A stretch of 64,000 nt of DNA, taken from sequence record OQ708377.1. One strand, given 5' to 3'. Below the pieces are notes generated by a model, which was given only the letters and a program-made list of their open reading frames with translations, did no database searches and was not told the DNA's origin. The stretch comes from Escherichia phage vB_EcoM_CRP22. Both the position numbers and the translations under genes were made by a program. Of this stretch, positions 32,160-56,078 are shown piece after piece (position 1 is the first letter of the stretch; each line of letters starts with the position of its first letter).

Positions 32160-32629
32160 AGAATACCTACACTATGACCCCGAAACAGGGGGTCTTTACT
32201 TGGATTAAGAAGTCTGCTAAGCACACAAAAATTGGTTCTGTTGCAGGTACAAACTTAAGGGGATACATCAGAATCTATTTGTTTGGTAAGGGTTATTATG
32301 CACATACACTGGCTGTTCTGTATATGGATGGTTACCTCCCTGAGTGTGTTGACCATAAAAATCATGTAACCCTAGATAATCGCTGGATAAATCTTAGGGC
32401 ATGTACGTTATCAGAGAACCAATGTAATAGGTTACTCAATAAGAATAATAAATCAGGTGTTAAAGGTGTGTACTACAAAAAACAGTATGGTAAGTGGTCT
32501 ACACAGATAACTTTTAAGAAGAGAGTTTACTTCTTCGGCAACTATGACACGATTGCTGAAGCAGCAGAGGTTGTAAATAGGGAACGTCAACGGTTACACA
32601 GAGAGTTTGCTAATAAAGGTGATGAATGA
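32137..32629 (+). CDS. HNH-AP2 homing endonuclease, reading frame disrupted at a G5 run (possible pseudogene or homopolymer error)
   Basis: ATG 32137 frame encodes MLTQQTLKEYLHYDPETG, matching the paralog N-terminus, then stops at 32206; body (VFTW...) continues one nt out of frame from the G5 run at 32188-32192 to 32629. Confidence 0.5.
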
Positions 32630-33126
32630 GAAAAATAAAAGGTTTTGGCAATTGCCCTGAATATGGACATTGGACTTCACTATGTGGTGAGGTTGACCCA
32701 GCAAAGCACTTTGGTTTTGTCTACCTAGTGTACTGCAAAAAGACTGGACAGTACTATTTGGGTAAAAAACAGCTTAATAGCGTGACCAAAAGAAAAGTTG
32801 CTGGTAAGACTCGGAAGAAGGTAGTCACTAAGGAGAGTGATTGGATGACTTATGAGACTTCTTCTGAGTATATTAAAAAAGATATTGAGAGCTTTGGAAA
32901 AGAATTTTTTGACTTTTACATTATTCAGACCTACTACACAAAAGGTGGCCTAGTCTATGGTGAAGCAAACCTTCAACATAAATTCGATGTAATGACAAAA
33001 AGGATTGACTCGAAGCTCAGACTCTTCTACAATGCCAATATTGCAGCAATTAAGTTTATCACTAAAGAAACTTATGAAGATGCTGAAAAAAGAATCCATA
33101 AGGTAATGAAAGCAAATCGTGCTTGA
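32626..33126 (+). CDS. putative GIY-YIG-like endonuclease
   Basis: 166 aa; FGFVYLVYCKKTGQYYLGKK resembles the GIY-(x10)-YIG motif; follows an HNH endonuclease. Confidence 0.35.
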   Translation: MRKIKGFGNCPEYGHWTSLCGEVDPAKHFGFVYLVYCKKTGQYYLGKKQLNSVTKRKVAGKTRKKVVTKESDWMTYETSSEYIKKDIESFGKEFFDFYIIQTYYTKGGLVYGEANLQHKFDVMTKRIDSKLRLFYNANIAAIKFITKETYEDAEKRIHKVMKANRA

Positions 33127-33132
33127 TAACTA

Positions 33133-33396
33133 TTGAGAGAGAATAAAATGTTTAACAAAAGTAAAGCTGTGAGTCATGTAGCAAAAGTTGACAGCAAGAT
33201 TGAAGAACTTGAGCGCATCCTTGCAAATGCTAGAGAGTCAATAATTAAAGAAGTTGAAGCTGTTGAATCTCAAATGCAGCACCTAATGCTTAAACGCCAA
33301 GAGCTACGTGAGCATCTTGAATATATTGAAACACGAGAGCTAAAGGTTAACAAATATTTTAAGGAGTACGAATGTTTAACTCAAGAGAATCAGTAA
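33133..33396 (+). CDS. small coiled-coil protein
   Basis: 87-aa ORF. Confidence 0.3.
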   Translation: MRENKMFNKSKAVSHVAKVDSKIEELERILANARESIIKEVEAVESQMQHLMLKRQELREHLEYIETRELKVNKYFKEYECLTQENQ

Positions 33397-34127
33397 AAAA
33401 CTGGAACCTTCGTTGTGGAAACACTCAAAAGCAACCTTACAGTGATGAGTATTGGGAATCTTTAAAATCTCAATCTCTGTGTATGCTTGAAGAGGCAAAA
33501 GAGCTTGTAAAAGCAATTGAAGAGAAAGACCCCATTGAGACACTGGATGCTCAGGCAGATTTACAATATGTTCTTGACGGTTTGATTTACCTGTCACAAC
33601 ATGACCATAACGGTGCTATGGAAGCTGTTTGCCATAATAATGACCTGAAGTACACAGATGACTATGAAGAAGCTTTAAAACGTCTTGCAGATATTGAGAA
33701 GCGCACTGGTCAAGATTGTATTGTCAGAATGTCAGTGGTTGATGGCAAAGAATGGTATGCAATTGTTCGTGCAGCCGATGGGAAGATTATGAAGCAATCA
33801 AATCTTCCTAAAGTGCAGCTTGGTGAATACATTGTAGAACTTGAAAGCCAAGAACTTTTTGTGGTAGTATCTGAGACATGCGTTATCTGCAAAGGTCTTG
33901 TAGGTAGCTTAAAGGATTTGGGTGTAGATGGTTTTGTAGAAGTTAATCCAATTACCTCTAAGGCAGATAAAGACTTCTGTAAAGAGAATGGACTATGGAT
34001 TGCAGATATTGTCTACTATGATGGTGAGCAGTTCCATGTAACCTCATACCCGAAACTGAATTATGATGCTAATAACCTGAAGTGCTGGTTAAAAGGGGTT
34101 GGTTATAATGGATTCACAGAACATTAA
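33372..34127 (+). CDS. hypothetical protein (MazG-like nucleotide pyrophosphohydrolase candidate)
   Basis: 251 aa; EEAKELVKAIEE...ETLDAQADLQYVLDGL resembles the MazG E-x-x-E / D-x-x-D helix pattern. Confidence 0.3.
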   Translation: MFNSRESVKNWNLRCGNTQKQPYSDEYWESLKSQSLCMLEEAKELVKAIEEKDPIETLDAQADLQYVLDGLIYLSQHDHNGAMEAVCHNNDLKYTDDYEEALKRLADIEKRTGQDCIVRMSVVDGKEWYAIVRAADGKIMKQSNLPKVQLGEYIVELESQELFVVVSETCVICKGLVGSLKDLGVDGFVEVNPITSKADKDFCKENGLWIADIVYYDGEQFHVTSYPKLNYDANNLKCWLKGVGYNGFTEH

Positions 34128-38914: not shown

Positions 38915-40111
38915 ATGAACAAAGTACAGATTATTAAAAAGAATGGCTCACTCGAAGAACCTGATATCAAAAAAGTTTTAGCAGCAGTCACAAAGTCAGC
39001 TAACAGGGTTGGATATAAAGAACTCCCACCAGATGTTACCCAAGCTCTTGAGTCAGCATTTATGAGGATTCTGGTAAAATCTACTAAACAGAATAATTTG
39101 CTAATTTCTGTAAATGATATTCACAGTATTGTTGAGGGTGCTTTGGCAGAAGTCAATCACGAGATTTATGAGTCTTACTCAACATATAGAAATTACCGTA
39201 AAGAAGTTGCTCAAAATTGGGATGAGCTTTACCAGAAGACCAAAGACACACTCTTCTTAGGTGACAGAGAGAATGCTAACTTTGATAGCAGTTTAATTTC
39301 TACAAAAGGTTCAATTATTCGTGGTTATCTGACTAAAGAAATCTTTAAACAGTACCACTTAACACCAGAGGAACTTGAAGCCATTGAAAAAGGGTTTATC
39401 TACATCCATGACTTAAGAGACCTAATTTTTGGTGGTATCAACTGTTGCCTGTTCGACATTGGTAAAGTCCTGAAAGGTGGCTTTGAAATGTCCGGCATCG
39501 AATATTGTGAACCAAAGTCTGTGCTGTCGGCATTACAGGTTATTGGTGACGTAGTTCTTTCAGCAACTGCACAGCAATTTGGTGGATTTACTTTAGCAGA
39601 GATTGATAAGGTACTTGTACCGTATGCTAAGAAGTCTCTACGCTATCATGCTGAGAAAGCAGCATCTTATGGTATTCCTAAAGAGCATTACCACAATTAT
39701 GTCATGGAGCAGCTACAGATTGAGCTAACTCAAGGTTTCCAGTCACTTGAAATGAAACTAAATACTGTACCTTGTAGTCGTGGGGATTTTGCATTCACAA
39801 CTTTGACATTCGGGTTACTTGACTCAGATATGTCCAATGAAGATAACCGACTGCAATATATAATTGCAAGTACTCTCCTAGATGTTCGTATGAATGGACA
39901 AGGTAAGAGCAAAAAGCCTGTTGTATTCCCTAAACTGGTTTATATTTATGACCAGAAGAGACATAATGAGAATATCTGTCAAGGACACCTGTACAGTAAA
40001 GCCATTGAGTGTTGCTCTAAAGCAATGTATCCAGATTTCTTAAGTGTATCTGGTCATGGTGCTGTAGCAGAGGCTTTTGAGCGTTCTGGCAAGGTAATTT
40101 CACCGATGGGT
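38915..40111 (+). CDS. nrdD: anaerobic ribonucleotide reductase, exon 1
   Basis: 399 codons ending ...GKVISPMG immediately before an in-frame TAA that begins the intron; continues as CRAFLSP... in exon 2. Confidence 0.75.
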
Positions 40112-40852
40112 TAACAAGCTCTATAGCTCATCTAAAACGTGCCTAAACAGGGAAACTCTACAGGTGTAGACAATCCTGTGCTAAATGATGTACGATGTAA
40201 GAAACTATATAAATAGGAGTATTACATGCCAAATTATCATGTTACTGAGGACGGAAGAGTCTTTAGGAAAAATGGTGTAGAACTTACGCAGTGGAAATCC
40301 AACACTGGTTATATGAAAGTAAGGTTTTATGGAAGGAAGAATCGTGACATGTATGTCCATAGGTTAGTTGCTGAAAAGTATGTACCTAACCCTAACAATC
40401 TTCCAATTGTAAAACACAAAGATGATAACAAACTGAACAACCATGCTTCTAACTTAGAATGGGGAACTCATTCTGAGAATGTTAAAGAGGGTTATGAAAA
40501 CGGTTGCTACAAGTTTTGTAAGCGTTCATATGCTGTGAAGGCTACACACAAAGTGACAAAAGAAGTTATTGTTGCTAAGTCAATACGAGAGTTATCCAAC
40601 ATACTCGGATATAATCGCAAGACTATCTCTTCAATATTGAAGGGTGTAAAAGAGCATAATAACTTTGAACATGAATTTGAGTACATTTAAATGCCGAACG
40701 ACTAACCGTGATGAATGTAGCGGTGTAGGGTCAAGCGACTCGAAATGGTACGCTACTTAGAAATAAGTAGAAGATATAGTCTGGACTTACTGGTGACAGT
40801 AAGCAGCTTGAATAAAGCGGGGTAAGCGTAGCGAACTTACCTGAACAACAAG
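40112..40852 (+). mobile_element. group I self-splicing intron interrupting nrdD, carrying an HNH endonuclease ORF
   Basis: Exon 1 ends in U, intron ends in G; 5' core (CTAAACAGGGAAACTCTACAGGTGTAGACAATCCTGTGCTAAAT) and 3' core (GTAGGGTCAAGCGACTCGAAA ... GATATAGTCTG ... CTGAACAACAAG) resemble the phage T4 td intron as recalled. Confidence 0.7.
40226..40690 (+). CDS. intron-encoded HNH homing endonuclease
   Basis: 154 aa; HNH-like core (VHRLVAEKY...NHASNLEWGTHSEN); located in intron loop with its own RBS (ATAGGAG). Confidence 0.65.
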   Translation: MPNYHVTEDGRVFRKNGVELTQWKSNTGYMKVRFYGRKNRDMYVHRLVAEKYVPNPNNLPIVKHKDDNKLNNHASNLEWGTHSENVKEGYENGCYKFCKRSYAVKATHKVTKEVIVAKSIRELSNILGYNRKTISSILKGVKEHNNFEHEFEYI

Positions 40853-41800
40853 TGTAGAGCGTTTTTATCACCATATCATAACGAAGATGGTGAAGAGTTT
40901 TATGTTGGTCGTGCTAACATTGGTGCTGTATCTTTGAACTTGCCAATGATTTACCAGTATTCTAAAGAGAATGGTTTAGATTTCTGGAAAGAGCTTGATA
41001 AGTACCTAGAGATGATTCGCAGCTTCCACAAGAAACGCTACGAAATGATTGCTAACATGCCAGCAAGTTCTAACCCTCTGGCATTCACACAAGGTGGTCT
41101 GTACAAAGGGACTAAGAAACCTACTGACAAGGTTGGTTGGGATATCGTGAAGTCCTTCACAGCTTCTTTTGGGGTTACTGCGCTTGATGAACTATCTGTT
41201 CTTGCTGAAGGTAAACGACTTCATGAAGTTGGAAGTTCTAGTTTTGCATACGATGTTCTGGCATACATTAACATGAAAACTGAAGAGTTTAAGAATGAAG
41301 ATGGCTTCCTGTATGCAGTATATGGCACTCCAGCAGAGTCATTGTGTGGAACTCAGCTAAAACAGTTCAGAGATATGTTTGGCGTTATCAAAGGCGTTTC
41401 TGATAAGGAATATTTTACAAACAGTTTCCATATGAATGTTGCAGCAGATATCTCACCATTTGAGAAGCAGGACTTAGAAGAGCCATTCTTCCATATCTGT
41501 AGAGGCGGCAGAATCCAGTATGTGAGGGTAGCTAACCCAGAAAACTTACCAGCACTTAAAAGTTGTATTACAAGAGGGATGTTGAAAGGTTTTTATCAGG
41601 GACTTAACTTTGACTTAGCAATCTGCGAACATTGTGGCAACAGACCAAAGGCTGATGTTGAAGAATGTGAGGTTTGCCATTCACATGACATCTCTGTGAT
41701 TAACAGAGTGTGTGGGTATCTTGGGTGGACTAAGATTAAAGGTGAATCCCGAATGAATGATGCAAAAATTGCTGAGATTCGTGACAGGGTTTCTATGTAA
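40853..41800 (+). CDS. nrdD: anaerobic ribonucleotide reductase, exon 2
   Basis: In-frame continuation CRAFLSPYHNEDGEEF...; C-terminal glycyl-radical motif RVCGYLG; Cys cluster CEHCG...CEVCH. Confidence 0.75.
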   Translation, partial: CRAFLSPYHNEDGEEFYVGRANIGAVSLNLPMIYQYSKENGLDFWKELDKYLEMIRSFHKKRYEMIANMPASSNPLAFTQGGLYKGTKKPTDKVGWDIVKSFTASFGVTALDELSVLAEGKRLHEVGSSSFAYDVLAYINMKTEEFKNEDGFLYAVYGTPAESLCGTQLKQFRDMFGVIKGVSDKEYFTNSFHMNVAADISPFEKQDLEEPFFHICRGGRIQYVRVANPENLPALKSCITRGMLKGFYQGLNFDLAICEHCGNRPKADVEECEVCHSHDISVINRVCGYLGWTKIKGESRMNDAKIAEIRDRVSM

Positions 41801-43955: not shown

Positions 43956-43967
43956 ACAGATACTATA

Positions 43968-43996
43968 AGGGGACTGTAAAGGTTCCCTTTTTATTT
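43968..43996 (+). terminator. rho-independent terminator
   Basis: ggggactgtaaaggttccc hairpin plus TTTTTATTTT. Confidence 0.55.
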
Positions 43997-44006
43997 TGGA
44001 GATAAT

Positions 44007-44522
44007 ATGTATCTGTCAAATCTAAAACGTTCGGCTGCAATGTCAGTTCTAAGACTAAGCTTTGAGGAACGTCAAGAGTTCATTGACTCCCACCAATACG
44101 ACCCTTCTAACTCAAATCACATGATTCTCTGGAATCGTGATAACTTCCGTGAAAGAGCACTTGTCCGTTATTACCCACACTACACAATAGATAAACTGTA
44201 TGAATGGTGTGTCGTGAAGAACACTATTGCAACACTGAACAATCTTTGCAGGTATACAGGTAAGCAAACATTCACATTAGGCCACCACAAGCCTGTTACA
44301 AAAGGTGGTGAACATCACTGTGCGAACTGGTTTATCCAAACTAAAGCTGATAACCAGAAGCAAGGAGATAGCCTTCTAAGTACTCCTAAGATGACCTATG
44401 AAGAGCAAGAGAAATATATCAAAAATAATATGCCAGATGTGCTTGACAACAACTATACAGATTTGGCAATATCTCTCCTGTTGAAGTTCGAGACAGTTTA
44501 TAGGGCAACTTACAATGGCTAA
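44007..44522 (+). CDS. hypothetical protein
   Basis: 171-aa ORF. Confidence 0.3.
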   Translation: MYLSNLKRSAAMSVLRLSFEERQEFIDSHQYDPSNSNHMILWNRDNFRERALVRYYPHYTIDKLYEWCVVKNTIATLNNLCRYTGKQTFTLGHHKPVTKGGEHHCANWFIQTKADNQKQGDSLLSTPKMTYEEQEKYIKNNMPDVLDNNYTDLAISLLLKFETVYRATYNG

Positions 44523-44793
44523 AGCAGATTGGGAAATAAAAGACCTAATAAGTGATGCTGGAAATGGTTGTGAGATGTATATGATTCGTGGCCATATACC
44601 AGACCCATTAGCTCTTGAGATGATTGACCGTCACACAAACGGATTCTACAAAGAACTAGGTGAACCAAATGTTGAACGCACTTGGACAAAACCAGTACCA
44701 GATAGCACAGGCAACTGTTCAGTAATCTATCACATTGTGAATCCACAAAAATGCAAAACAGCTATGGCTGTGACATTCGTAACTTTTGATTGA
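44515..44793 (+). CDS. hypothetical protein
   Basis: 92-aa ORF. Confidence 0.3.
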   Translation: MAKADWEIKDLISDAGNGCEMYMIRGHIPDPLALEMIDRHTNGFYKELGEPNVERTWTKPVPDSTGNCSVIYHIVNPQKCKTAMAVTFVTFD

Positions 44794-44803
44794 GAGTAAA
44801 ACT

Positions 44804-45685
44804 ATGAAAACATCTATCCGTGTTATAATTCATTCACCGACAAAAGGGTCTCATGAAGAAGAGTTTAACATCATCCAGTTCCCTTCTGGTGAGATTGGTG
44901 GACACTTTTCACAAGAGCTTGTCGATTTTACTGCTTATGCAGCATCGTCCATCAACAATGTGATTATGATTGTAAAAGGCTACGACAAGGACACATTGTT
45001 TGCTGTGGCACTTGCTAAAGAAGCAATTGATGATTTAATTCCTCATGATTATGCCTTAAAGACTGTCATCTTTTACTACTTACCAAATGCACGATATGAC
45101 CGTCACATGTTTAAAGGTGATGCAGCAGCTTTGAAGGTTTTTGCTAAACAGGTTAATGCAATGAGGTTTGGTGCGGTCTGTGCAGTTGACCCTCACAGTT
45201 ATGTGCCAGATAACCTGTTTAACTGCTTCCAAAGTATTCCTCAAAATGAAATTGCAGTCCACTATGCAAATGACCCACTGGTTGATTACTTAGTAGCCCC
45301 AGATGCAGGTGCTTCTAAGAAGATTGCAGAGACTGCTAAAGAGGTGGATAAACCATACATCACAATGTCTAAAGTACGTAACCTTCAGACTGGTGAAATT
45401 ACTGGTATGCGAATCCTTGATGATGTGGATTTGACAGATAAAACTGTCATGATTCTTGATGATATCTGTGATGGAGGTCGTACCTTCATAGAGGCAGCTA
45501 AACATCTTCGTGAATCAGGTGCAAAACGTGTGGAACTCTATGTAACTCATGGCATTTTCTCTAAAGGTGTTGAAAATCTTCTTGACAATGGCATTGACCA
45601 CATCTACACTACAAACTCTTTAGGGGAAGCTAAAGACCGTGGTTTAACACATTATGGTCAAGTTACTGTAGCAAACCTTGATTAA
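44804..45685 (+). CDS. PRPP-synthetase-fold protein (ribose-phosphate pyrophosphokinase-like; candidate ADP-ribose pyrophosphokinase Adps)
   Basis: PRPP/ribose-5-phosphate binding loop VMILDDICDGGRTFIEAAKHL; start set at ATG 44804 preceded by GAGAG; directly upstream of NAMPT-like gene. Confidence 0.65.
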   Translation: MKTSIRVIIHSPTKGSHEEEFNIIQFPSGEIGGHFSQELVDFTAYAASSINNVIMIVKGYDKDTLFAVALAKEAIDDLIPHDYALKTVIFYYLPNARYDRHMFKGDAAALKVFAKQVNAMRFGAVCAVDPHSYVPDNLFNCFQSIPQNEIAVHYANDPLVDYLVAPDAGASKKIAETAKEVDKPYITMSKVRNLQTGEITGMRILDDVDLTDKTVMILDDICDGGRTFIEAAKHLRESGAKRVELYVTHGIFSKGVENLLDNGIDHIYTTNSLGEAKDRGLTHYGQVTVANLD

Positions 45686-45694
45686 AACTTTATA

Positions 45695-45715
45695 GGGGCT
45701 TCAAAGCCCCATTTT
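45695..45715 (+). terminator. hairpin (attenuator/terminator-like) between the NAD-pathway genes
   Basis: ggggcttcaaagcccc followed by ATTTT. Confidence 0.45.
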
Positions 45716-45731
45716 GAGAGAGATTAAAAAG

Positions 45732-47513
45732 ATGACTAAATCACTTTATGCAGTACCAGCAGGTCTTAATGCAGATGCTTACAAGGCATCACATATATAT
45801 CAGTATCCAGATGCTACACAGTATCTTATGTTGAACCTGACACCACGTAGTGATAAATGGTTTAACAGCCCTTTAGCCATTGACGGTGTAGTTGCTTTTG
45901 GTATTCAACGTTTTGTTAAAGATTACCTGATAGACCACTGGAATGCCACCTTCTTCGAACGTGACAAAAAAGAAGCAATTGACGAAATCTTAGAAGTCAT
46001 GAACGGTGTTCTGGGTAAAGATGCTATCGGTAGAGAACATTGGGAAGCACTTCACGACTTAGGTTATCTACCAGTTGAAGTATACGCTGTAGAAGAAGGC
46101 ACAGTTGTCCCTATGCGTGTACCAATGATTGTCTTCCAGAACACTGTTTCAGGTTTCCATTGGGTAGCGGGGTATCTGGAAGATGCTTTCTCTGCTGAGA
46201 TTTGGAAGGCTTGTACCATTGCAACTATTGCATTGCACTACAAACGTATCTGTAAGAAGTGGTCTGACCTTACTTGTGACAACGACTTGCATTTGCCTTA
46301 TCAGTGCCATGATTTTGCTATGCGTGGTATGTCCGGCTTTACTGATGACGCATTTAACGCTGTAGGACACTTAACCAGCTTTAAAGGGACTGATAGCTTC
46401 CCTGCTGTATATACAGCTAAACGCATCTACGGTCAGTCCTACCCAATCTCTGATATTGGTAGCTCTGTACCCGCCACTGAACACTCTGTAATGTGTGCAA
46501 ACATTGCTTGGGAAGGTGGTAATGAGTTGATTGAAGAAGAAAGACGCTTTAAAGGTGAGTTACAAACCTTCCGTCGTTTCTTAACAGAAACTTACCCAAC
46601 TGGTATTGCAAGTGTTGTTTCAGACACTTATAACTTCTGGAGAACTGTGTCAGAAATTTTACCAGCACTTCGTAAAGAAATTATGGAACGTGATGGCAAA
46701 CTGGTAATTCGTCCTGACTCTGGAGACCCTGTACATATTATCACAGGTTATAAAGCAATCCACTTAGAATGTGCTAAGAAGGCTTATTACGAGCACCTAA
46801 GCAAGCTGGAAGCCAGTGACACAATGCTGAATGCTGTTCTGAACATGAAGCTTGAAAACATCAACTATGGTATTGCTGGATGGCTACTGTCAGAAGGCTA
46901 CGAGATGGTTGTTGACAGAGAAGACTTTGAAGTTGCTGATACAGTGCTGTTGAAAAACGCTTATATGGTTGGCTCTGCAAACGTTGTAACACGTCCTGTA
47001 GCAGAGATTGATGGGGCTATTAAGACCTTGTATAACATCTTTGGAGGGACTATCAACTCTAAAGGCTTTAAGGTACTGGATGAGCACATTGGCCTCATCT
47101 ATGGTGACTCTATCACGCTGGAACGTGCAAACGAAATCCTGAAGCGTTTGTATGAAATGGGTTTTGCAAGCTCTAACGTAGTGTTTGGTGTAGGCTCTTA
47201 CACTTACCAGTATATGACTCGTGACACCTTTGCATTTGCTGTTAAAGCAACTCTTGCAAGTATTGGTGGCAAAGAGATTATGCTTGCAAAAGACCCTAAA
47301 ACAGACAGTGGTGTTAAGAAGTCTGCTTTTGGTGGTGTAGCACCTATGTGGGATGGCGATAAGCTGAAAGCTGTAGATGGCTATGGATTCCAGAGCTTTG
47401 CAGATGTGCTTGAACATCCAGCTTGTGCTTTACGTTTAGTCTTTAGTGACTCTGAGCAGTTCGGTTACACAACTCTTGGTGATATTCGAAATAATATTGA
47501 CAAGCAGCTTTAA
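45732..47513 (+). CDS. nicotinamide phosphoribosyltransferase-family protein (NadV/NAMPT-like; candidate Namat)
   Basis: About 594 aa from ATG 45732 (MTKSLYAVPAGLNADAYK...), N-terminus and length typical of NAMPT/NadV family (recalled); preceded by GAGAGAG. Confidence 0.7.
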   Translation: MTKSLYAVPAGLNADAYKASHIYQYPDATQYLMLNLTPRSDKWFNSPLAIDGVVAFGIQRFVKDYLIDHWNATFFERDKKEAIDEILEVMNGVLGKDAIGREHWEALHDLGYLPVEVYAVEEGTVVPMRVPMIVFQNTVSGFHWVAGYLEDAFSAEIWKACTIATIALHYKRICKKWSDLTCDNDLHLPYQCHDFAMRGMSGFTDDAFNAVGHLTSFKGTDSFPAVYTAKRIYGQSYPISDIGSSVPATEHSVMCANIAWEGGNELIEEERRFKGELQTFRRFLTETYPTGIASVVSDTYNFWRTVSEILPALRKEIMERDGKLVIRPDSGDPVHIITGYKAIHLECAKKAYYEHLSKLEASDTMLNAVLNMKLENINYGIAGWLLSEGYEMVVDREDFEVADTVLLKNAYMVGSANVVTRPVAEIDGAIKTLYNIFGGTINSKGFKVLDEHIGLIYGDSITLERANEILKRLYEMGFASSNVVFGVGSYTYQYMTRDTFAFAVKATLASIGGKEIMLAKDPKTDSGVKKSAFGGVAPMWDGDKLKAVDGYGFQSFADVLEHPACALRLVFSDSEQFGYTTLGDIRNNIDKQL

Positions 47514-47526
47514 AAGTATATGATAA

Positions 47527-47550
47527 GAGGCTCCTACGGGAGCCTTTTTA
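47527..47550 (+). terminator. rho-independent terminator
   Basis: aggctcctacgggagcct hairpin plus TTTTT. Confidence 0.65.
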
Positions 47551-47566
47551 ATTTCTGGAGAATACT

Positions 47567-47902
47567 ATGAAAATCAAAGAAATGAACATCAATGTTGTCT
47601 TAGAAGAACGCTGGGAGAACATCAAGAAGCCTGAAAATGGTCATAAGTTCCTCAACAAAATCTTAGTAGCAGCTAAAGAAGAACTGACTGGCAAGGTTGC
47701 AGCAGCAATCACAATAAAGGTCTGTGTAAAAGGTCTTCCAGACAATCACCAATTTGCACTTGACGAGTTTAAAGAAAGCTTCTACAATCCAAACAAACAG
47801 ATGCTTGAAAGTAACTTTGCAGTATCTACAAGCATCGTTCATGACAGAAGCTTTATCCTTTACAAGAATATGAGAGGTGAGTCATGCAAGCATATTGGAT
47901 AG
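47567..47902 (+). CDS. hypothetical protein
   Basis: 111-aa ORF. Confidence 0.3.
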   Translation: MKIKEMNINVVLEERWENIKKPENGHKFLNKILVAAKEELTGKVAAAITIKVCVKGLPDNHQFALDEFKESFYNPNKQMLESNFAVSTSIVHDRSFILYKNMRGESCKHIG

Positions 47903-48060
47903 AAATTTTACTGTCACTTGGTAGTGTAGCAGTGTTTGTTTACCTTCTTTGTAAGTACTTTGCAGAACACAAAAAATGTGACTACTGTAACGGAGAGGGG
48001 TACATAAGGGCAGGTTGTTGCCCTATGTGTGGTGGTTCTGGTAAAATGTTTAATAAGTAA
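47884..48060 (+). CDS. small membrane-anchored DnaJ-type zinc-finger protein (58 aa)
   Basis: N-terminal hydrophobic helix then two CxxCxGxG repeats (CDYCNGEG, CPMCGGSG); below ORF-track cutoff. Confidence 0.4.
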   Translation: MQAYWIEILLSLGSVAVFVYLLCKYFAEHKKCDYCNGEGYIRAGCCPMCGGSGKMFNK

Positions 48061-48088: not shown

Positions 48089-50455
48089 ATGCGCATGGTA
48101 AATGACCACGCAGAAGTGATTAAAAGTTCAACTTCTTTAGAGACATCTCAAGCACAGATTACAATGACACCTGAAATGTTCAGCCTTTTGAGTTCTGGTG
48201 TATATACATTTAAAGAGCGAGCAGTAATTCGTGAACTGTCATGTAACGCAGTAGATGCTCAGAAAGAAGCTGGAAAAGAGAACATCCCGTTCCATGTGCA
48301 TTTACCTACTCGTTTTGAGCCTTACTTTGAAGTTCGTGATTTTGGAACTGGATTGACTCATGATAAAGTTATGAGTTTGTATCTAAACTACGGGGCTTCT
48401 ACGAAGAATGACTCTAATGACTACATTGGTGCAATGGGTATCGGCTCAAAATCTCCATTTGCAATTGCTCAGTCATTCACAGTATCTAGCTATGTTGATG
48501 GTGTTGTTAATAAGTACTCTGTTTACCTTGAGAATGGTATCCCTCAAGTAACTAAGCTGACCACCAACCCAACAAAAGAACCTAATGGTTTAGCTGTACG
48601 TGTAGCAGTTGCTGACCATCGTATCTCAAAGTTCTTTGAAGAGGCTGGTCACGTATACTCATACTTTGCTGTAAAACCAGAAAGTAATATCGAGTATGAC
48701 GATGTATTAGCAGATATGAATGTCATTGCCCGTGAAGAAGGTGTTTATGATGCTATGATTCATAAGCAAAGCTGGCGTTCTAGTGGCAACAGGATAGAGT
48801 TTAATGTGGTAATGGGTAATATTGCCTACCCAGTGAACATGGAAGCATTACTTGGTGATGATTTCTTCAAAGTCTTGCCAGAGTTTTTCCGTAGGAGCAT
48901 AGACCTTGTAAACATCTACATGCCTATTGGTTCAGTGGCTATTGCAGCTTCTCGTGAAGCATTGCAGATGAATGACACGACAAAAAATGTTATCATTGAG
49001 GCTACTAAAAAGATAACTGAAGCCATTACAAAGGATGTTATCAAGAAAGTTAACAGCCAACCTACACTCATGGATGCTGCACAGGCTTATGCTGAGTTAC
49101 GTTTGAACTCACGAGAGATGTTTAATGTTGTGTGTCCAAAGCTAGAGTGGGGAGGCGTTAAGCTTGATTCTCTGGAAGTAGAATTACTAAACATCCGTCG
49201 TGGGATTATCTACGCAGAAGACGGCTCAGTCATTTATGAACGTGACGGTAAAGGTAATATCAAGGTTGATAGGAACGGGAACAATATCCCTAAAGTGGAT
49301 TATCTTTATAATCCAGTTGCTTATGTCAAGTTCAACTCTTTAGAGAGTAAGATTCGTGCAACAGCACTTTCCTACACTCAAGAGGCAAGTATGTTCAATA
49401 TCTTTGGCGCAATGCGTAAAAGTCAAATTGAACAGTTTTTGTTTGTTATAAACGACCGTCGCAATAAAAATGGTACTGAGAAGACTGTAGGACGCAATCA
49501 GATTCTGCGTGGTGCATGTCGAGACTATGCCAGTGAGTCTAGTCTGTTTCACAGATACAATGGTATCGTCTTTGTATTCTCTACCGAGAAAGAGTTAGAC
49601 GACCTAATCAATCTGCACAAACTTGATAAAAGCTTGTTAAAGATTGTGAAGATGTCTGATAAGGAACATCATTATCAGCGTAAAGAAGCTGTAAGAGGTG
49701 TTGTAAAACTCTGGAAAGCTGTTCCAGCAGAAGGTGTAGCTTCATACAAAGAGGTGTCAGAAGACTTAGATACGATTGAAGAGCCTCAGCTTTATATTAA
49801 GGCAGTAGGCGACACAGTTGATGGCGAATGTTTTTGCTCATCTCCAGAAGATGTAGCTAAGTCAGTTGCCAATGTCATTGGGAAGACAGTTTATGTTTTC
49901 CGAAAAGCAAATTGGAAAAAGATACCAGAAGACTGGATTGAAGTAGATGAGAAGCTCTTGAACGATAGCTTAACTGATGTTCACTGGATTAATCATAACA
50001 GGTATATGACACGTATCTATATGAATGGTGTCCTAGACCTGACAAGCAGTTGGATTATTGCCAGAAACTTTACGTTCAATAACAGGAAGATTTCTCGTGG
50101 TTATTGCTATTCACGAGATACAAACAAAACTATCTTCTTAGAAGGTAATGAAGATGCTGTTGAGGCAATGTTTGGAAAAATCCAATACGTTGCTGCACCG
50201 TTTGCATACACTTACACTGTTAGCAGGTTGCAAACTTTGAAAGAATGCCTTGACAACGATACAAAGCTGTACAAGAAAATTAAGAAAGCTGGCGACCGTA
50301 TGGTCATTAAGGTGACAAACTATCTTTCAAAAAGAAAACAAGAAAACTTCTTGCTTTCTCATTTAGATTGGAATAAAGTGTCACCCATCGAAGTGAGTAA
50401 GTTCTTAGGCTTTGATGTGAAGTGTGTCCCAGAAGGGACTACAATTTACGATTAA
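48089..50455 (+). CDS. rIIA: rIIA-like protein with GHKL-type ATPase domain
   Basis: 788 aa; Bergerat-fold motifs: N-box ELSCNAVDA, G1 VRDFGTGLT, G2 GAMGIGSKS. Confidence 0.5.
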   Translation: MRMVNDHAEVIKSSTSLETSQAQITMTPEMFSLLSSGVYTFKERAVIRELSCNAVDAQKEAGKENIPFHVHLPTRFEPYFEVRDFGTGLTHDKVMSLYLNYGASTKNDSNDYIGAMGIGSKSPFAIAQSFTVSSYVDGVVNKYSVYLENGIPQVTKLTTNPTKEPNGLAVRVAVADHRISKFFEEAGHVYSYFAVKPESNIEYDDVLADMNVIAREEGVYDAMIHKQSWRSSGNRIEFNVVMGNIAYPVNMEALLGDDFFKVLPEFFRRSIDLVNIYMPIGSVAIAASREALQMNDTTKNVIIEATKKITEAITKDVIKKVNSQPTLMDAAQAYAELRLNSREMFNVVCPKLEWGGVKLDSLEVELLNIRRGIIYAEDGSVIYERDGKGNIKVDRNGNNIPKVDYLYNPVAYVKFNSLESKIRATALSYTQEASMFNIFGAMRKSQIEQFLFVINDRRNKNGTEKTVGRNQILRGACRDYASESSLFHRYNGIVFVFSTEKELDDLINLHKLDKSLLKIVKMSDKEHHYQRKEAVRGVVKLWKAVPAEGVASYKEVSEDLDTIEEPQLYIKAVGDTVDGECFCSSPEDVAKSVANVIGKTVYVFRKANWKKIPEDWIEVDEKLLNDSLTDVHWINHNRYMTRIYMNGVLDLTSSWIIARNFTFNNRKISRGYCYSRDTNKTIFLEGNEDAVEAMFGKIQYVAAPFAYTYTVSRLQTLKECLDNDTKLYKKIKKAGDRMVIKVTNYLSKRKQENFLLSHLDWNKVSPIEVSKFLGFDVKCVPEGTTIYD

Positions 50456-50534: not shown

Positions 50535-51644
50535 ATGACTACTAAAACTAAAGCACAGATTGACGCAGAAATTTACAAACTGGTTAAAGAAGGCAAGCTG
50601 ACTAAAACAGCTATTGCACAGAAGTTCAATACTTCAACCCGTTCAGTTGGTCGTGCTGTAGAGCGTCATGAAGCAACCTTAAAGGGTAAGAAAAAGGTAG
50701 CTTCTACACCAGCTACGAAGACTTTGAAGCAAGTTGCTAAGTCAGTTAAAAAGAAAGCTGACAAACCAGTTGAAAAGGTCGTTAAAGAGTCTGTACAGAA
50801 AGCTCCAGTAAATAAACTGCATGAAGCTATGCAGAAAGATGACAAGATTGAGTACATGATTACTGGCGACTCTGTAATTATGACTTACGGTTCAGAATCT
50901 GAAATTGTTGAGTCTACTCATCCGAACTATCAAGAGATTGTAGTTCATGTTGTGAAAGGTGAGTTCAAGAAAGCTTTCGAACTGATGAACATTCGTAAAT
51001 CTATCGAAAACTTCACTCAGGGTGCTATCACAATCAAAGGTGACAAGCTATTCTACGGTGCTGTTGAGATGCGTTCTACTCTGGTTGACCGTATCCTTCA
51101 CATGATGAAGACTGGTGATAAAGGTTTTGAACGACTTGTAATGTTCTTCGAAAAACTGATGGAAAACCCATCTAAAGACTCTGTAGAACAACTTTGGGGA
51201 TTCGTATCTCACCTTGATGTTGAAATTGATGAAGAGGGTTACATCATTGGTTGGAAGAAAGTCTCTACTCGTGAAGGCAAACTGGTTGACTCTCACACCT
51301 ACAAAGTACCTAATGATTTGGGTAACATTGTAGAGATGCCACGTTGGATGGTTGATAACAACCGTAACGTAACTTGCTCTCAAGGTCTTCATGTTGGTGC
51401 TTGGGATTATGTTCGTTGCTTCTCAGGTGATACCATCCTGAAGGTTCGTGTCCATCCACGAGATGTTGTATCTGTTCCAACTGATTACAACGATATGAAG
51501 ATGCGCTCATCCCGTTATGAAGTTGCAGCAATCGTTGATAATCAGCGTAGAGTGCTGAAAGCATGGGACGGTAAGACTGAGGCTTTGCATGTCATCGTTG
51601 GCACTGCTGGTGAACTTATCTCTCAACGGAAACGTGAAATCTAA
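50535..51644 (+). CDS. hypothetical protein (rIIB-like by position only)
   Basis: 369 aa immediately downstream of rIIA-like gene; no motif recognised. Confidence 0.25.
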   Translation: MTTKTKAQIDAEIYKLVKEGKLTKTAIAQKFNTSTRSVGRAVERHEATLKGKKKVASTPATKTLKQVAKSVKKKADKPVEKVVKESVQKAPVNKLHEAMQKDDKIEYMITGDSVIMTYGSESEIVESTHPNYQEIVVHVVKGEFKKAFELMNIRKSIENFTQGAITIKGDKLFYGAVEMRSTLVDRILHMMKTGDKGFERLVMFFEKLMENPSKDSVEQLWGFVSHLDVEIDEEGYIIGWKKVSTREGKLVDSHTYKVPNDLGNIVEMPRWMVDNNRNVTCSQGLHVGAWDYVRCFSGDTILKVRVHPRDVVSVPTDYNDMKMRSSRYEVAAIVDNQRRVLKAWDGKTEALHVIVGTAGELISQRKREI

Positions 51645-55292: not shown

Positions 55293-56078
55293 ATGGGTAT
55301 TGTAAAAATCATCAATGGGGATATCTTCTCCGCATTTGATAAAGGTAAGTTTGATGTTATTGGTCACGGTTGCAACTGTATGAATTTAATGGGTGCAGGT
55401 ATCGCTGACAAGATTTCTAAACTTTACCCAAAAGCATATGAGACTGATACAGAAGTCTATCTGTATGCAGGTGGTATAGGTCACAAACCCTGTGAAAATT
55501 TACTAGGCAATTTCTCTGTAGCACGTTTAGAACAAGGCCGTATAGCTAACCTTTACACTCAGCTTAAGACTGGTAAAGATGCCCGATACAGTGCTTTAGA
55601 GTCATCTTTGAAACAACTTAACAGATACTGTGAAGTCAATCAGTTGAAGAAAGTTGGGTTACCTATGATTGGTGCAGGTATCGGTGGACTAGACTCTCAA
55701 GCCGTCACAGTCATCATTAATCAGGTGATGAAGAGTGTAGATGTGTATCTGTATGTCTATGAAGGAGAGATGTACCACAAGTTACGCTCAGGTTGGAAGA
55801 ACTACTGTGAACCAGAATACTTTGCTGGTGTAGTAGTGTTCACTAATGATGTAGTTACCCTCTTCAGACGAAGAAAAGGCAAGATACATCAAAGTAACCC
55901 TCCGGTTGAAAAGATGTCTCTAAGTAACGCTCTAGTTACCCACCTGTCGAAGAGCAATCACAGAATTGCAGTAACATTTGGCAGTGATGCAGATACATAT
56001 ATCTATGCAAGAACTGATGAGGATGTTGAGGAAATTTTCTCTTCACCGGAAGTAACCTTCTTAGACGCAAAGAACTAA
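55293..56078 (+). CDS. macro-domain protein (ADP-ribose binding/hydrolase candidate)
   Basis: N-terminal IINGDIF, GHGCNCMNLMGAGIADKI and later GLPMIGAGIGGLD match the macro-domain G-rich loop pattern. Confidence 0.5.
   Translation: MGIVKIINGDIFSAFDKGKFDVIGHGCNCMNLMGAGIADKISKLYPKAYETDTEVYLYAGGIGHKPCENLLGNFSVARLEQGRIANLYTQLKTGKDARYSALESSLKQLNRYCEVNQLKKVGLPMIGAGIGGLDSQAVTVIINQVMKSVDVYLYVYEGEMYHKLRSGWKNYCEPEYFAGVVVFTNDVVTLFRRRKGKIHQSNPPVEKMSLSNALVTHLSKSNHRIAVTFGSDADTYIYARTDEDVEEIFSSPEVTFLDAKN

What the first reader, a model, noticed from the sequence alone, without database searches (positions are those of the whole stretch)
44804..47513. PRPP-synthetase-like plus NAMPT-like gene pair: candidate phage NAD+ reconstitution (NARP1-type) counter-defence module
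Two adjacent co-oriented genes encode a PRPP-synthetase-fold protein (binding loop VMILDDICDGGRTFIEAAKHL) and a NAMPT/NadV-family protein of about 594 aa, separated only by a short hairpin. This two-gene architecture matches what has been described for phage NARP1: an ADP-ribose pyrophosphokinase (Adps, Prs-like) and a nicotinamide ADPR transferase (Namat, Nampt-like) that rebuild NAD+ from ADPR and nicotinamide after NAD+-depleting immunity (Thoeris, DSR, SIR2-type). The alternative is a classical NadV plus Prs salvage pair; sequence alone cannot tell whether the substrate is ADPR or ribose-5-phosphate. No NMNAT-like gene was recognised in the window, which would favour the NARP1-type route if it is absent genome-wide.
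Basis: partly seen in the sequence, partly recalled or inferred. Interest (0 to 1): 0.7.

Follow-up and report, generated by a model that had tools for sequence, protein, structure and literature searches.

The report
Known phage NAD+ rebuilding operon (NARP1)

Summary
Two co-oriented genes lie at 44804-45685 (293 aa, Prs-like) and 45732-47513 (593 aa, Nampt-like), separated by a 46-nt spacer that holds a 6-bp hairpin. The window is a Felixounavirus. NARP1 was discovered in Bas63, a phage of that genus, as genes 79-80. The window proteins are 76% (Adps) and 97% (Namat) identical to those two. Namat keeps the catalytic His/Arg/Asp core and both elements of the published ADPR-PP "selectivity clamp": GSYTYQYMTRD, and K42-W43 as in Bas63. 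Adps keeps the catalytic lysine. It scores twice as high against the biochemically characterised SPbetaL1 Adps as against E. coli Prs. No NMNAT-like gene was found in the ORFs scanned. Close relatives carrying the same Adps allele are already listed as NARP1 carriers by the discoverers. Verdict: interpretation supported, already known, low interest.

Three side observations:
- A conserved Adpp-family macro-domain protein lies 7.8 kb downstream (55293-56078) and keeps both residues that were mutated in Adpp. It may act as an unlinked NARP1-AP phosphatase.
- Namat carries a folded ~88-aa insertion seen in all 13 sampled homologues of 582-610 aa.
- A mosaic divergent block covers the upstream small ORF and the first ~60% of the adps gene.

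The parts
44804..45685 (+). adps: ADP-ribose pyrophosphokinase (ADPR-PP synthetase), a Prs-like protein of 293 aa. RxDR motif ARYDR at aa 96-100, DPHS at aa 129-132, catalytic Lys190 (nt 45371-45373), PRPP-type loop at aa 215-235.
   Evidence: It is 76% identical to bas63_0079. phmmer gives 84 bits to SPbetaL1 Adps and 43.5 bits to E. coli Prs; Lys190 aligns with SPbetaL1 K162. It falls below the cut-off of every NCBIfam Prs model. It matches PHROG 619.
45695..45710 (+). Intergenic hairpin (6-bp GC-rich stem, UCAA loop, followed by AUUUU) in the 46-nt adps-namat spacer. Role unknown; a partial terminator or an RNA-stability/processing element is possible.
   Evidence: The terminator scan did not call it. 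In some relatives an HNH endonuclease gene occupies this spacer.
45732..47513 (+). namat: nicotinamide ADP-ribose transferase, a Nampt-like protein of 593 aa. Clamp loop PRSDKWF at aa 38-44 (nt 45843-45863), catalytic His251, Arg327/Asp329, clamp helix motif GSYTYQYMTRD at aa 488-498 (nt 47193-47225).
   Evidence: It is 97% identical to bas63_0080. The best PDB sequence and fold match is SPbetaL1 Namat 9w5w/9w5x. All 20 NAD+-contact residues are identical or conservatively replaced.
46749..47012 (+). Insertion of ~88 aa in Namat (aa 340-427), predicted to form a folded alpha/beta subdomain. It is absent from SPbetaL1 Namat, bacterial homologues and NAMPT. Function unknown.
   Evidence: Alignment A1. 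AF2 model with block pLDDT 85-96 in this stretch. No Pfam or PDB sequence match.
47525..47548 (+). Intrinsic-terminator-like hairpin (10-bp stem, T-run) just after namat; the likely 3' end of the transcription unit.
   Evidence: -16.9 kcal/mol, z = -3.1.
55293..56078 (+). Unlinked candidate accessory gene: a 261-aa protein with an N-terminal Adpp/Tk.4/Poa1p-type macro domain (aa 1-157, His25 and Asn28 conserved) and a beta-rich C-terminal domain of about 100 aa. Its link to NARP1 is an inference, not a result.
   Evidence: Pfam Macro, E 2e-7. An HMM built from 11 NARP1-associated Adpp proteins scores 108 bits, E 4e-33. It is 27% identical to Vibrio phage Gary Adpp. Fold search: TARG1, DarG, Poa1p. 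The synteny is conserved in a distant relative.

Best explanation
This is the two-gene NARP1 counter-defence operon of a Felixounavirus. When a host NADase defence (SIR2-HerA/Nezha, DSR, type I Thoeris, SEFIR and others) cleaves NAD+ to ADP-ribose and nicotinamide, Adps (44804-45685) uses ATP to pyrophosphorylate ADPR to ADPR-PP. Namat (45732-47513) then replaces the pyrophosphate with nicotinamide and regenerates NAD+ directly, with no NMN intermediate and no NMN adenylyltransferase. What is shown here: gene anatomy, orthology, and conservation of catalytic and specificity residues. What is shown by others on orthologues: genetics and ADPR-PP detection in Bas63-infected cells, and enzymology on the SPbetaL1 homologues. 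What is inferred: that the window's own proteins, including its more divergent Adps allele, have the same activities.
For: 1. The window is a Felixounavirus; 258 phage records match the pair and the best is 96% identical.
2. Namat is 97% and Adps 76% identical to Bas63 gp80 and gp79, with identical lengths and synteny.
3. In Bas63, deleting genes 79-80 sensitises the phage to SIR2-HerA. The effect persists in a host lacking pncC and nadR. ADPR-PP appears only with wild-type phage plus the defence system. An independent PhageMaP study found a 10^4-10^6 drop in plating efficiency for either single deletion, rescued by complementation.
4. Namat residues: Asp15/Tyr17, Phe195, Arg198, Asp221, His251, Arg327 and Asp329 are conserved. 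The clamp motif GSYTYQYMTRD fits GSX-phi-X-phi-X-phi-TRD. The clamp loop has K42-W43 as described for Bas63.
5. The AF2 model (pLDDT 92) matches solved Namat best, with target-normalised TM 0.95.
6. Adps and SPbetaL1 Adps are mutually closer (84 bits) than either is to E. coli Prs (42-44 bits). The catalytic Lys190 is conserved. All NCBIfam Prs models score below cut-off.
7. Relatives with the same Adps N-terminus (phages allfine and vB_EcoM_Shy, both starting MKTSIRVII...) are already listed in the discoverers' supplementary Prs/Adps table, with a 'Yes' flag that I read as Namat-associated.
8. No NMNAT-type domain was found in 38 window ORFs or in 10 Bas63 ORFs lying outside the window, and none is annotated in Bas63.
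Against: None of this window's proteins has been assayed. The enzymology was done on SPbetaL1 proteins, which are only 34% (Adps) and ~43% (Namat) identical; Bas63 Adps did not purify well. The window Adps differs from the genetically tested Bas63 allele over most of its first ~175 residues, where DNA identity is 59-79%. No sequence signature for ADPR versus ribose-5-phosphate specificity is known in Adps. Namat homologues can still make NMN from PRPP in vitro, so a minor classical activity is not excluded. The NMNAT search used Pfam only, covered ORFs of about 110 aa and longer plus annotations, and used Bas63 as a proxy for the ~23 kb of genome outside the window.
Confidence: 0.93

Rival explanations
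1. A classical salvage pair. The first enzyme is a true PRPP synthetase and the second a true NadV/Nampt that makes NMN, which host NadR or PncC-dependent routes then convert to NAD+.
For: Pfam, PHROG, NCBIfam PRK09198 and GenBank annotations all name the proteins this way. Namat homologues can form NMN from PRPP in vitro. The fold matches HdNadV almost as well as Namat (TM 0.94 against 0.95).
Against: Bas63 orthologues work in a host lacking pncC and nadR, and they generate ADPR-PP in vivo. The paper's figure legend says SPbetaL1 Adps was incubated with ribose-5-phosphate or ADPR, and its text reports no measurable product from the non-ADPR incubation, which the text calls 'PRPP and ATP'; I read this as no activity on ribose-5-phosphate. 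The Namat-specific adenine clamp motif is present. Adps misses every curated Prs cut-off.
Confidence: 0.04
2. A split NARP1-AP. The two-gene operon works together with the unlinked macro-domain protein at 55293-56078, which would dephosphorylate ADPR-1''-phosphate made by aRES-type defences and so feed ADPR into Adps.
For: An HMM of NARP1-associated Adpp proteins matches the protein end to end (108 bits, E 4e-33). The residues mutated in Gary Adpp, His24 and Asn27 (the primer and strain tables list H24A and N27A variants; the paper says inactivating any of the three genes abolished anti-defence), are conserved as His25 and Asn28 and are invariant in 24 homologues. The gene is present at >=80% coverage in 261 phage records, about the same number (258) as carry this NARP1 pair, and its position about 9 kb downstream of namat is kept in a relative whose namat lies on the same contig. 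An aRES system exists in E. coli.
Against: The gene is about 13-14 genes from the operon, so it fails the published within-two-genes criterion, and no Escherichia phage appears in that paper's table. The same family (T4 Tk.4, PHROG 335) is common in phages that are not known to carry NARP1. The best structural matches are TARG1 and DarG macro domains, which remove ADP-ribose from proteins or DNA, ahead of Poa1p. The motif after the conserved glycine loop differs (GGLDSQ against GGDW). The extra C-terminal domain is unexplained.
Confidence: 0.3
3. The genes are decayed or non-functional remnants.
For: None found.
Against: Both reading frames are intact and full length. Identity to many relatives is 94-99%. 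All catalytic residues are kept. The structure model is confident.
Confidence: 0.01

Closest known systems
NARP1 of Escherichia phage Bas63 / JohannRWettstein, genes bas63_0079-0080 (Osterman et al., bioRxiv 10.1101/2024.02.11.579819)
   Same: Same genus, same gene order and flanking genes, identical protein lengths. Namat is 97% and Adps 76% identical. The clamp loop (PRSDKWF) and clamp helix motif are the same.
   Different: A mosaic block (window ~44520-45330) makes the upstream 92-aa ORF and roughly the first 175 residues of Adps (~60% of the gene) a different allele. That allele is the commoner one among Felixounaviruses. Bas63 has one extra small gene (0081) after namat.
NARP1 of Bacillus phage SPbetaL1 (the enzymology, and Namat crystal structures 9w5w/9w5x; NAR 2026, PMC12774641)
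   Same: Same two-gene architecture. Catalytic Lys in Adps. Namat catalytic core and GSX..TRD clamp helix. Best PDB match by both sequence and fold.
   Different: Only 34% (Adps) and ~43% (Namat) identity. The clamp loop uses Lys-Trp instead of Arg. The window Namat has two extra insertions (aa ~258-275 and aa 340-427). In SPbetaL1 the two genes abut, with no spacer hairpin.
NARP1-AP of Vibrio phage Gary (Adps-Adpp-Namat; bioRxiv 10.64898/2026.01.28.702374)
   Same: Adps and Namat core. The window genome also encodes an Adpp-family macro domain in which the two residues mutated in Adpp are conserved.
   Different: Here the macro gene is 7.8 kb downstream rather than inside the operon, and it carries an extra C-terminal domain.
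NARP2 of Vibrio phage KVP40 (NadV/Nampt + NatV/Nmnat)
   Same: A Nampt-fold enzyme used by a phage to restore NAD+.
   Different: NARP2 runs through PRPP and NMN and needs a phage Nmnat. No Nmnat was found here, a Prs-like Adps is present, and the Namat clamp motif is present.
Cellular Prs (PRPP synthetase) and NadV/NAMPT
   Same: Same folds and catalytic chemistry: pyrophosphoryl transfer from ATP to C1 of a ribose, then displacement of pyrophosphate by nicotinamide.
   Different: The substrate is ADP-ribose / ADPR-PP rather than ribose-5-phosphate / PRPP. Adps scores below the curated Prs thresholds.

Membership tests
NARP1 (Adps + Namat) | Adjacent, co-oriented adps and namat genes | tested here: met
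   44804-45685 and 45732-47513, both on the + strand, 46 nt apart.
NARP1 (Adps + Namat) | The Prs-like protein belongs to the phage Adps clade, not to cellular Prs | tested here: met
   It is 76% identical to bas63_0079. It scores 84 bits to SPbetaL1 Adps against 43.5 bits to E. coli Prs, and the reverse search agrees. It is below every NCBIfam Prs cut-off. Relatives with the same N-terminus are listed in the discoverers' supplementary Prs/Adps table.
NARP1 (Adps + Namat) | Adps catalytic lysine (SPbetaL1 K162, Gary K192) | tested here: met
   Lys190 aligns with SPbetaL1 K162 and E. coli Prs K194.
NARP1 (Adps + Namat) | Namat catalytic core (catalytic His; Arg306, Asp215, Phe189 in SPbetaL1 numbering) | tested here: met
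   His251, Arg327, Asp221 and Phe195 are conserved. Of 20 NAD+-contact residues, 16 are identical and 4 conservatively replaced.
NARP1 (Adps + Namat) | [quoted passage not shown] | tested here: met
   GSYTYQYMTRD at aa 488-498, with Tyr at positions 3, 5 and 7. Position phi3 is Met, where the paper reports mainly Asn or Val.
NARP1 (Adps + Namat) | Namat clamp loop supplies an adenine-stacking residue (Arg at position 3, or Lys/Tyr followed by the stacking residue) | tested here: met
   S40-D41-K42-W43, identical to Bas63, which the paper describes as the Lys-plus-next-residue type.
NARP1 (Adps + Namat) | Enzymatic activities: ADPR + ATP gives ADPR-PP; ADPR-PP + nicotinamide gives NAD+ | not testable with these tools
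   Shown for the SPbetaL1 enzymes and, as metabolites, in Bas63-infected cells. Not shown for this window's proteins.
NARP1 (Adps + Namat) | Counter-defence phenotype against NAD+-depleting systems | not testable with these tools
   Shown for the Bas63 orthologues by two independent studies.
NARP2 (Nampt + Nmnat) | A phage-encoded NMN adenylyltransferase | tested here: not met
   No nucleotidyltransferase or NMNAT Pfam hit in 38 window ORFs or in 10 Bas63 ORFs outside the window. None is annotated in Bas63. Limits: Pfam only, ORFs of about 110 aa and longer, and a proxy genome for the unseen ~23 kb.
NARP1-AP (Adps + Adpp + Namat) | A macro-domain Adpp gene within two genes of the NARP1 operon | tested here: not met
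   The flanking ORFs have no Macro or RyR domain. The only macro gene starts 7.8 kb downstream of the namat stop codon.
NARP1-AP (Adps + Adpp + Namat) | An Adpp-family protein with the two mutated residues (Gary H24, N27) somewhere in the genome | tested here: met
   The protein at 55293-56078 scores 108 bits against an Adpp HMM, and His25 and Asn28 are conserved. Activity is untested.
Cellular PRPP synthetase (Prs) | Score above the curated NCBIfam/TIGRFAM Prs thresholds | tested here: not met
   TIGR01251 scores 112 bits against a cut-off of 113. The equivalog models score 40-103 bits against cut-offs of 296-536.

The most novel reading that the evidence does not exclude
Felixounaviruses may run a split NARP1-AP. 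In this reading, the conserved but unlinked macro-domain protein at 55293-56078 (Adpp/Tk.4 family, His25 and Asn28 intact, with an extra C-terminal domain) converts ADPR-1''-phosphate, or perhaps other ADPR derivatives, into ADPR for the Adps-Namat operon. That would extend counter-defence to aRES-type systems. The published survey scanned only two genes either side of NARP1 and so would not have counted it. A second, weaker possibility is that the folded ~88-aa insertion in Namat adds a regulatory or partner-binding function.
Probability: 0.3. Interest if true: 0.45.

Novelty: already known. Interest (0 to 1): 0.15.

Why it matters
As it stands, this confirms a published system. It shows that the usual database names for these genes ("ribose-phosphate pyrophosphokinase" and "nicotinamide phosphoribosyltransferase") are functionally misleading. 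Felixounaviruses are widely used as therapeutic and typing phages, so it is practically useful to know that they carry NARP1, and possibly an unlinked Adpp-like phosphatase, when predicting which NAD+-depleting defences they can overcome. The only route to something new is the macro-domain lead. If it were confirmed, the reported figure of 15% of NARP1 phages with an associated phosphatase would be an underestimate, and accessory steps of NAD+ reconstitution would not have to be operon-linked.

Tried and rejected
- Classical Prs + NadV salvage: rejected on the published Bas63 genetics and metabolite data, the Namat clamp motif, and the failure of Adps to reach Prs thresholds.
- NARP2: rejected because no NMNAT was found.
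- In-operon NARP1-AP or a RyDEP (RyR-domain) accessory: the flanking ORFs 44007-44522, 44515-44793, 47567-47902 and 47884-48060 have no Macro or RyR hits.
- A sequence signature separating ADPR from ribose-5-phosphate specificity in Adps: the 5-phosphate loop is DGGRT here, SFGGT in SPbetaL1 and DTGGT in E. coli Prs, so it is not conserved among Adps proteins. I make no claim from it.
- Identity of the Namat insertion (aa 340-427) and of the macro protein's C-terminal domain: Pfam at E<=10 and PDB phmmer gave only noise.
- Rfam at gathering thresholds found nothing in the whole window, so the spacer hairpin is not a described RNA family.
- A guessed accession for Bas63 (MZ501111) turned out to be Bas51. 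The correct record, MZ501086, came from a spread listing of BLAST hits.
Full report
**Observation**

ATG 44804 to stop 45685 encodes 293 aa. ATG 45732 to stop 47513 encodes 593 aa. Both are on the + strand. The quoted loop VMILDDICDGGRTFIEAAKHL is at aa 215-235 of the first protein. Pfam assigns Pribosyltran and Pribosyl_synth to the first, and NAPRTase plus NAMPT_N to the second.

The 46-nt spacer contains the hairpin GGGGCU-UCAA-AGCCCC at 45695-45710. A strong terminator-like hairpin follows namat at 47525-47548, and another lies upstream at 43967-43989. This suggests a transcription unit running from ORF 44007 to the end of namat, but that is inference.

**What the window is**

Megablast of the pair finds 258 phage records. 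Nearly all are Escherichia, Salmonella, Shigella or Citrobacter Felixounavirus-type phages, and the best is 96% identical (Escherichia phage HMD-P10). GC content is about 39% throughout.

**What the pair is**

[quoted passage not shown] It reports the following for Bas63:
- Deleting genes 79-80 made the phage sensitive to SIR2-HerA.
- NAD+ depletion was less severe with wild-type phage.
- The effect did not need host PncC or NadR.
- ADPR-PP (m/z 720.010) appeared only with wild-type phage in cells carrying the defence system.

The enzymology used the SPbetaL1 homologues. Adps formed ADPR-PP from ADPR and ATP. Namat formed NAD+ from ADPR-PP and nicotinamide, and preferred ADPR-PP over PRPP when given both. 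The K162A (Adps) and R306G (Namat) mutants were inactive.

An independent PhageMaP screen found that deleting either g79 or g80 reduced Bas63 plating on Sir2-HerA cells by 10^4-10^6, and complementation restored it.

I retrieved Bas63 (MZ501086) and compared directly. Window Namat is 97% identical to bas63_0080 over all 593 residues (578 of 593). Window Adps is 76% identical to bas63_0079 over all 293 residues. The flanking genes are the same.

**Specificity features of Namat**

The 2026 structural paper on SPbetaL1 Namat lists the NAD+-contact residues. It defines a "selectivity clamp" with two elements: a helix motif GSX-phi-X-phi-X-phi-TRD, and a variable loop that supplies an adenine-stacking residue.

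I mapped the residues through the phmmer alignment to PDB 9w5w. Its numbering is offset by +5, and all 20 named residues matched the expected letters, which verifies the mapping. Sixteen of the 20 contacts are identical in the window protein. The other four are conservative: R40 to K42, S190 to A196, A362 to S460, F392 to Y490. The catalytic His is His251, and Arg306 corresponds to Arg327.

The helix motif reads GSYTYQYMTRD (aa 488-498). The loop reads S-D-K-W, which is the Lys-plus-next-residue arrangement the paper describes for Bas63.

An AlphaFold2 model built on a 26-sequence alignment has mean pLDDT 92. Its best PDB matches are the Namat crystal structures (target-normalised TM 0.95), then H. 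ducreyi NadV (0.94), then mammalian NAMPT (about 0.9). So the fold alone barely discriminates between Namat and Nampt. The clamp motif and the orthology are what decide it.

**Adps**

In phmmer, window Adps scores 84 bits against SPbetaL1 Adps and 43.5 bits against E. coli Prs. The reverse search gives 84 against 42 bits. Among solved structures the best hits are archaeal Prs at 63-64 bits. Every NCBIfam Prs model scores below its cut-off.

Lys190 aligns with SPbetaL1 K162. The RxDR motif (ARYDR) and the DPHS motif are conserved.

I found no motif shared by Adps proteins that would explain ADPR specificity, so the substrate assignment for Adps rests on orthology. The discoverers' supplementary tables already list close relatives of this window (phages allfine, vB_EcoM_Shy, EC6, SP116, FelixO1) in their Prs/Adps and Namat tables. 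For allfine and Shy the listed Adps sequence starts MKTSIRVII..., the window's allele.

**NMNAT**

No nucleotidyltransferase or NMNAT domain was hit in 38 window ORFs. None was hit in 10 Bas63 ORFs that lie outside the region the window covers. None is annotated in Bas63. This fits NARP1 and argues against NARP2.

**Differences from the characterised examples**

1. Compared with Bas63, a block at about 44520-45330 has only 59-79% nucleotide identity, while the flanks are mostly about 90% or higher. The block covers the 92-aa ORF 44515-44793 (68% aa identity) and roughly the first 175 residues of Adps. Among the hits, the window allele is the commoner form (cluster P0121 has 791 member sequences; the 78% cluster P0123 has 259).
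2. Namat has two insertions relative to SPbetaL1 and bacterial homologues, at aa ~258-275 and aa 340-427. The second is predicted as a folded alpha/beta subdomain (block pLDDT 85-96). It is present in all 13 sampled homologues of 582-610 aa, down to 45% identity. The named ones are from Felix O1-like phages of Escherichia, Salmonella, Shigella, Yersinia and Pectobacterium. It has no Pfam or PDB sequence match. The structural paper's text does not discuss it.
3. In some relatives an HNH endonuclease gene occupies the adps-namat spacer.

**A lead outside the finding**

While scanning for NMNAT I found that window 55293-56078 (the homologue of bas63_0095, annotated "putative phosphatase") has a Macro domain.

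A 2026 preprint shows that aRES defences cleave NAD+ to ADPR-1''-phosphate, which NARP1 cannot use. It also shows that some NARP1 operons carry a macro-domain phosphatase, Adpp, that restores ADPR; this extended pathway is called NARP1-AP. That survey scanned only two genes on either side of NARP1, and its table lists no Escherichia phage.

Evidence linking the window protein to Adpp:
- An HMM I built from 11 Adpp sequences in that table hits it end to end at 108 bits, E 4e-33, and hits no other ORF in the window.
- It is 27% identical to Gary Adpp.
- The two residues mutated in that study, H24 and N27, correspond to His25 and Asn28. Both are invariant in 24 homologues.
- The gene keeps its position about 9 kb downstream of namat in a relative whose namat lies on the same contig.

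Evidence against a dedicated role in NARP1:
- The same family includes T4 Tk.4 and is widespread in phages not known to carry NARP1.
- The model's best structural matches are TARG1 and DarG macro domains, ahead of Poa1p.
- The protein has an unexplained beta-rich C-terminal domain.

I therefore rate a "split NARP1-AP" at about 0.3.

**Context**

According to PhageMaP in Bas63, the gene just upstream (g77, whose window homologue at 44007-44522 is 91% identical) counters the Ec67 retron. rIIA and rIIB downstream counter QatABCD. NARP1 therefore sits in a region rich in counter-defence genes.

**Verdict**

The system is already known: this is the lineage in which it was discovered. Interest is low (0.15). 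The macro-domain lead is the only element with some novelty potential.

Noticed in passing
window 55293-56078 (+): A 261-aa protein with an Adpp/Tk.4/Poa1p-type macro domain and an extra beta-rich C-terminal domain of about 100 aa. An Adpp HMM scores 108 bits, and the two residues mutated in Adpp (His25, Asn28 here) are conserved. It lies 7.8 kb downstream of namat, so it would not have been counted by the published NARP1-AP survey. It could be an unlinked ADPR-1''-P phosphatase, or a TARG1/DarG-like ADP-ribosyl hydrolase.
   Followed up: partly
window 46749-47012 (Namat aa 340-427) and 46497-46559 (aa ~256-276): Two insertions in Namat. The larger is confidently modelled as a folded alpha/beta subdomain and has no Pfam or PDB sequence match. 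Unrelated insertions occur at the same site in other phage Namats (P0097, P0112), so this looks like an insertion hot spot.
   Followed up: partly
window ~44520-45330: A mosaic divergent block relative to Bas63 (59-79% nt identity, flanks mostly ~90% or higher). It spans the 92-aa ORF 44515-44793 and roughly the first 175 residues of Adps. Two Adps alleles circulate in Felixounaviruses, and the genetically tested Bas63 allele is the rarer one.
   Followed up: partly
L006 (PP892526.1) 1209-1700; window spacer 45686-45731: In a subset of relatives an HNH homing endonuclease gene (163 aa) sits between adps and namat, where the window has only the 46-nt hairpin spacer.
   Followed up: partly
window 44007-44522 (+) and 48089-50455 / 50535-51644 (+): The neighbours of NARP1 are homologues of Bas63 g77 (91% identical; reported to counter the Ec67 retron) and of rIIA/rIIB (reported to counter QatABCD). 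The region is a cluster of counter-defence genes. PHROGs gives g77 a weak HNH hit, whereas the PhageMaP paper calls it GIY-YIG.
   Followed up: partly
window 38915-41800 (+): The anaerobic ribonucleotide reductase gene nrdD appears split by an HNH_3/NUMOD1 homing endonuclease ORF (40226-40690), matching the joined CDS annotated in Bas63. Rfam found no group I intron at gathering threshold.
   Followed up: no
window 32174-33126 (+) and 33372-34127 (+): Back-to-back HNH_3 and GIY-YIG (SegE-like) homing endonuclease ORFs, followed by a 251-aa protein with a PRA-PH/MazG-like pyrophosphohydrolase domain.
   Followed up: no
hits H41, H71, H46 (MG065664, GU169904, PP892526): Records labelled Campylobacter phage A132 and Staphylococcus phage SA1, and a record classified as Tequintavirus, match this Felixounavirus operon at 92-95% nucleotide identity. 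They are probably mislabelled or contaminated database entries.
   Followed up: no
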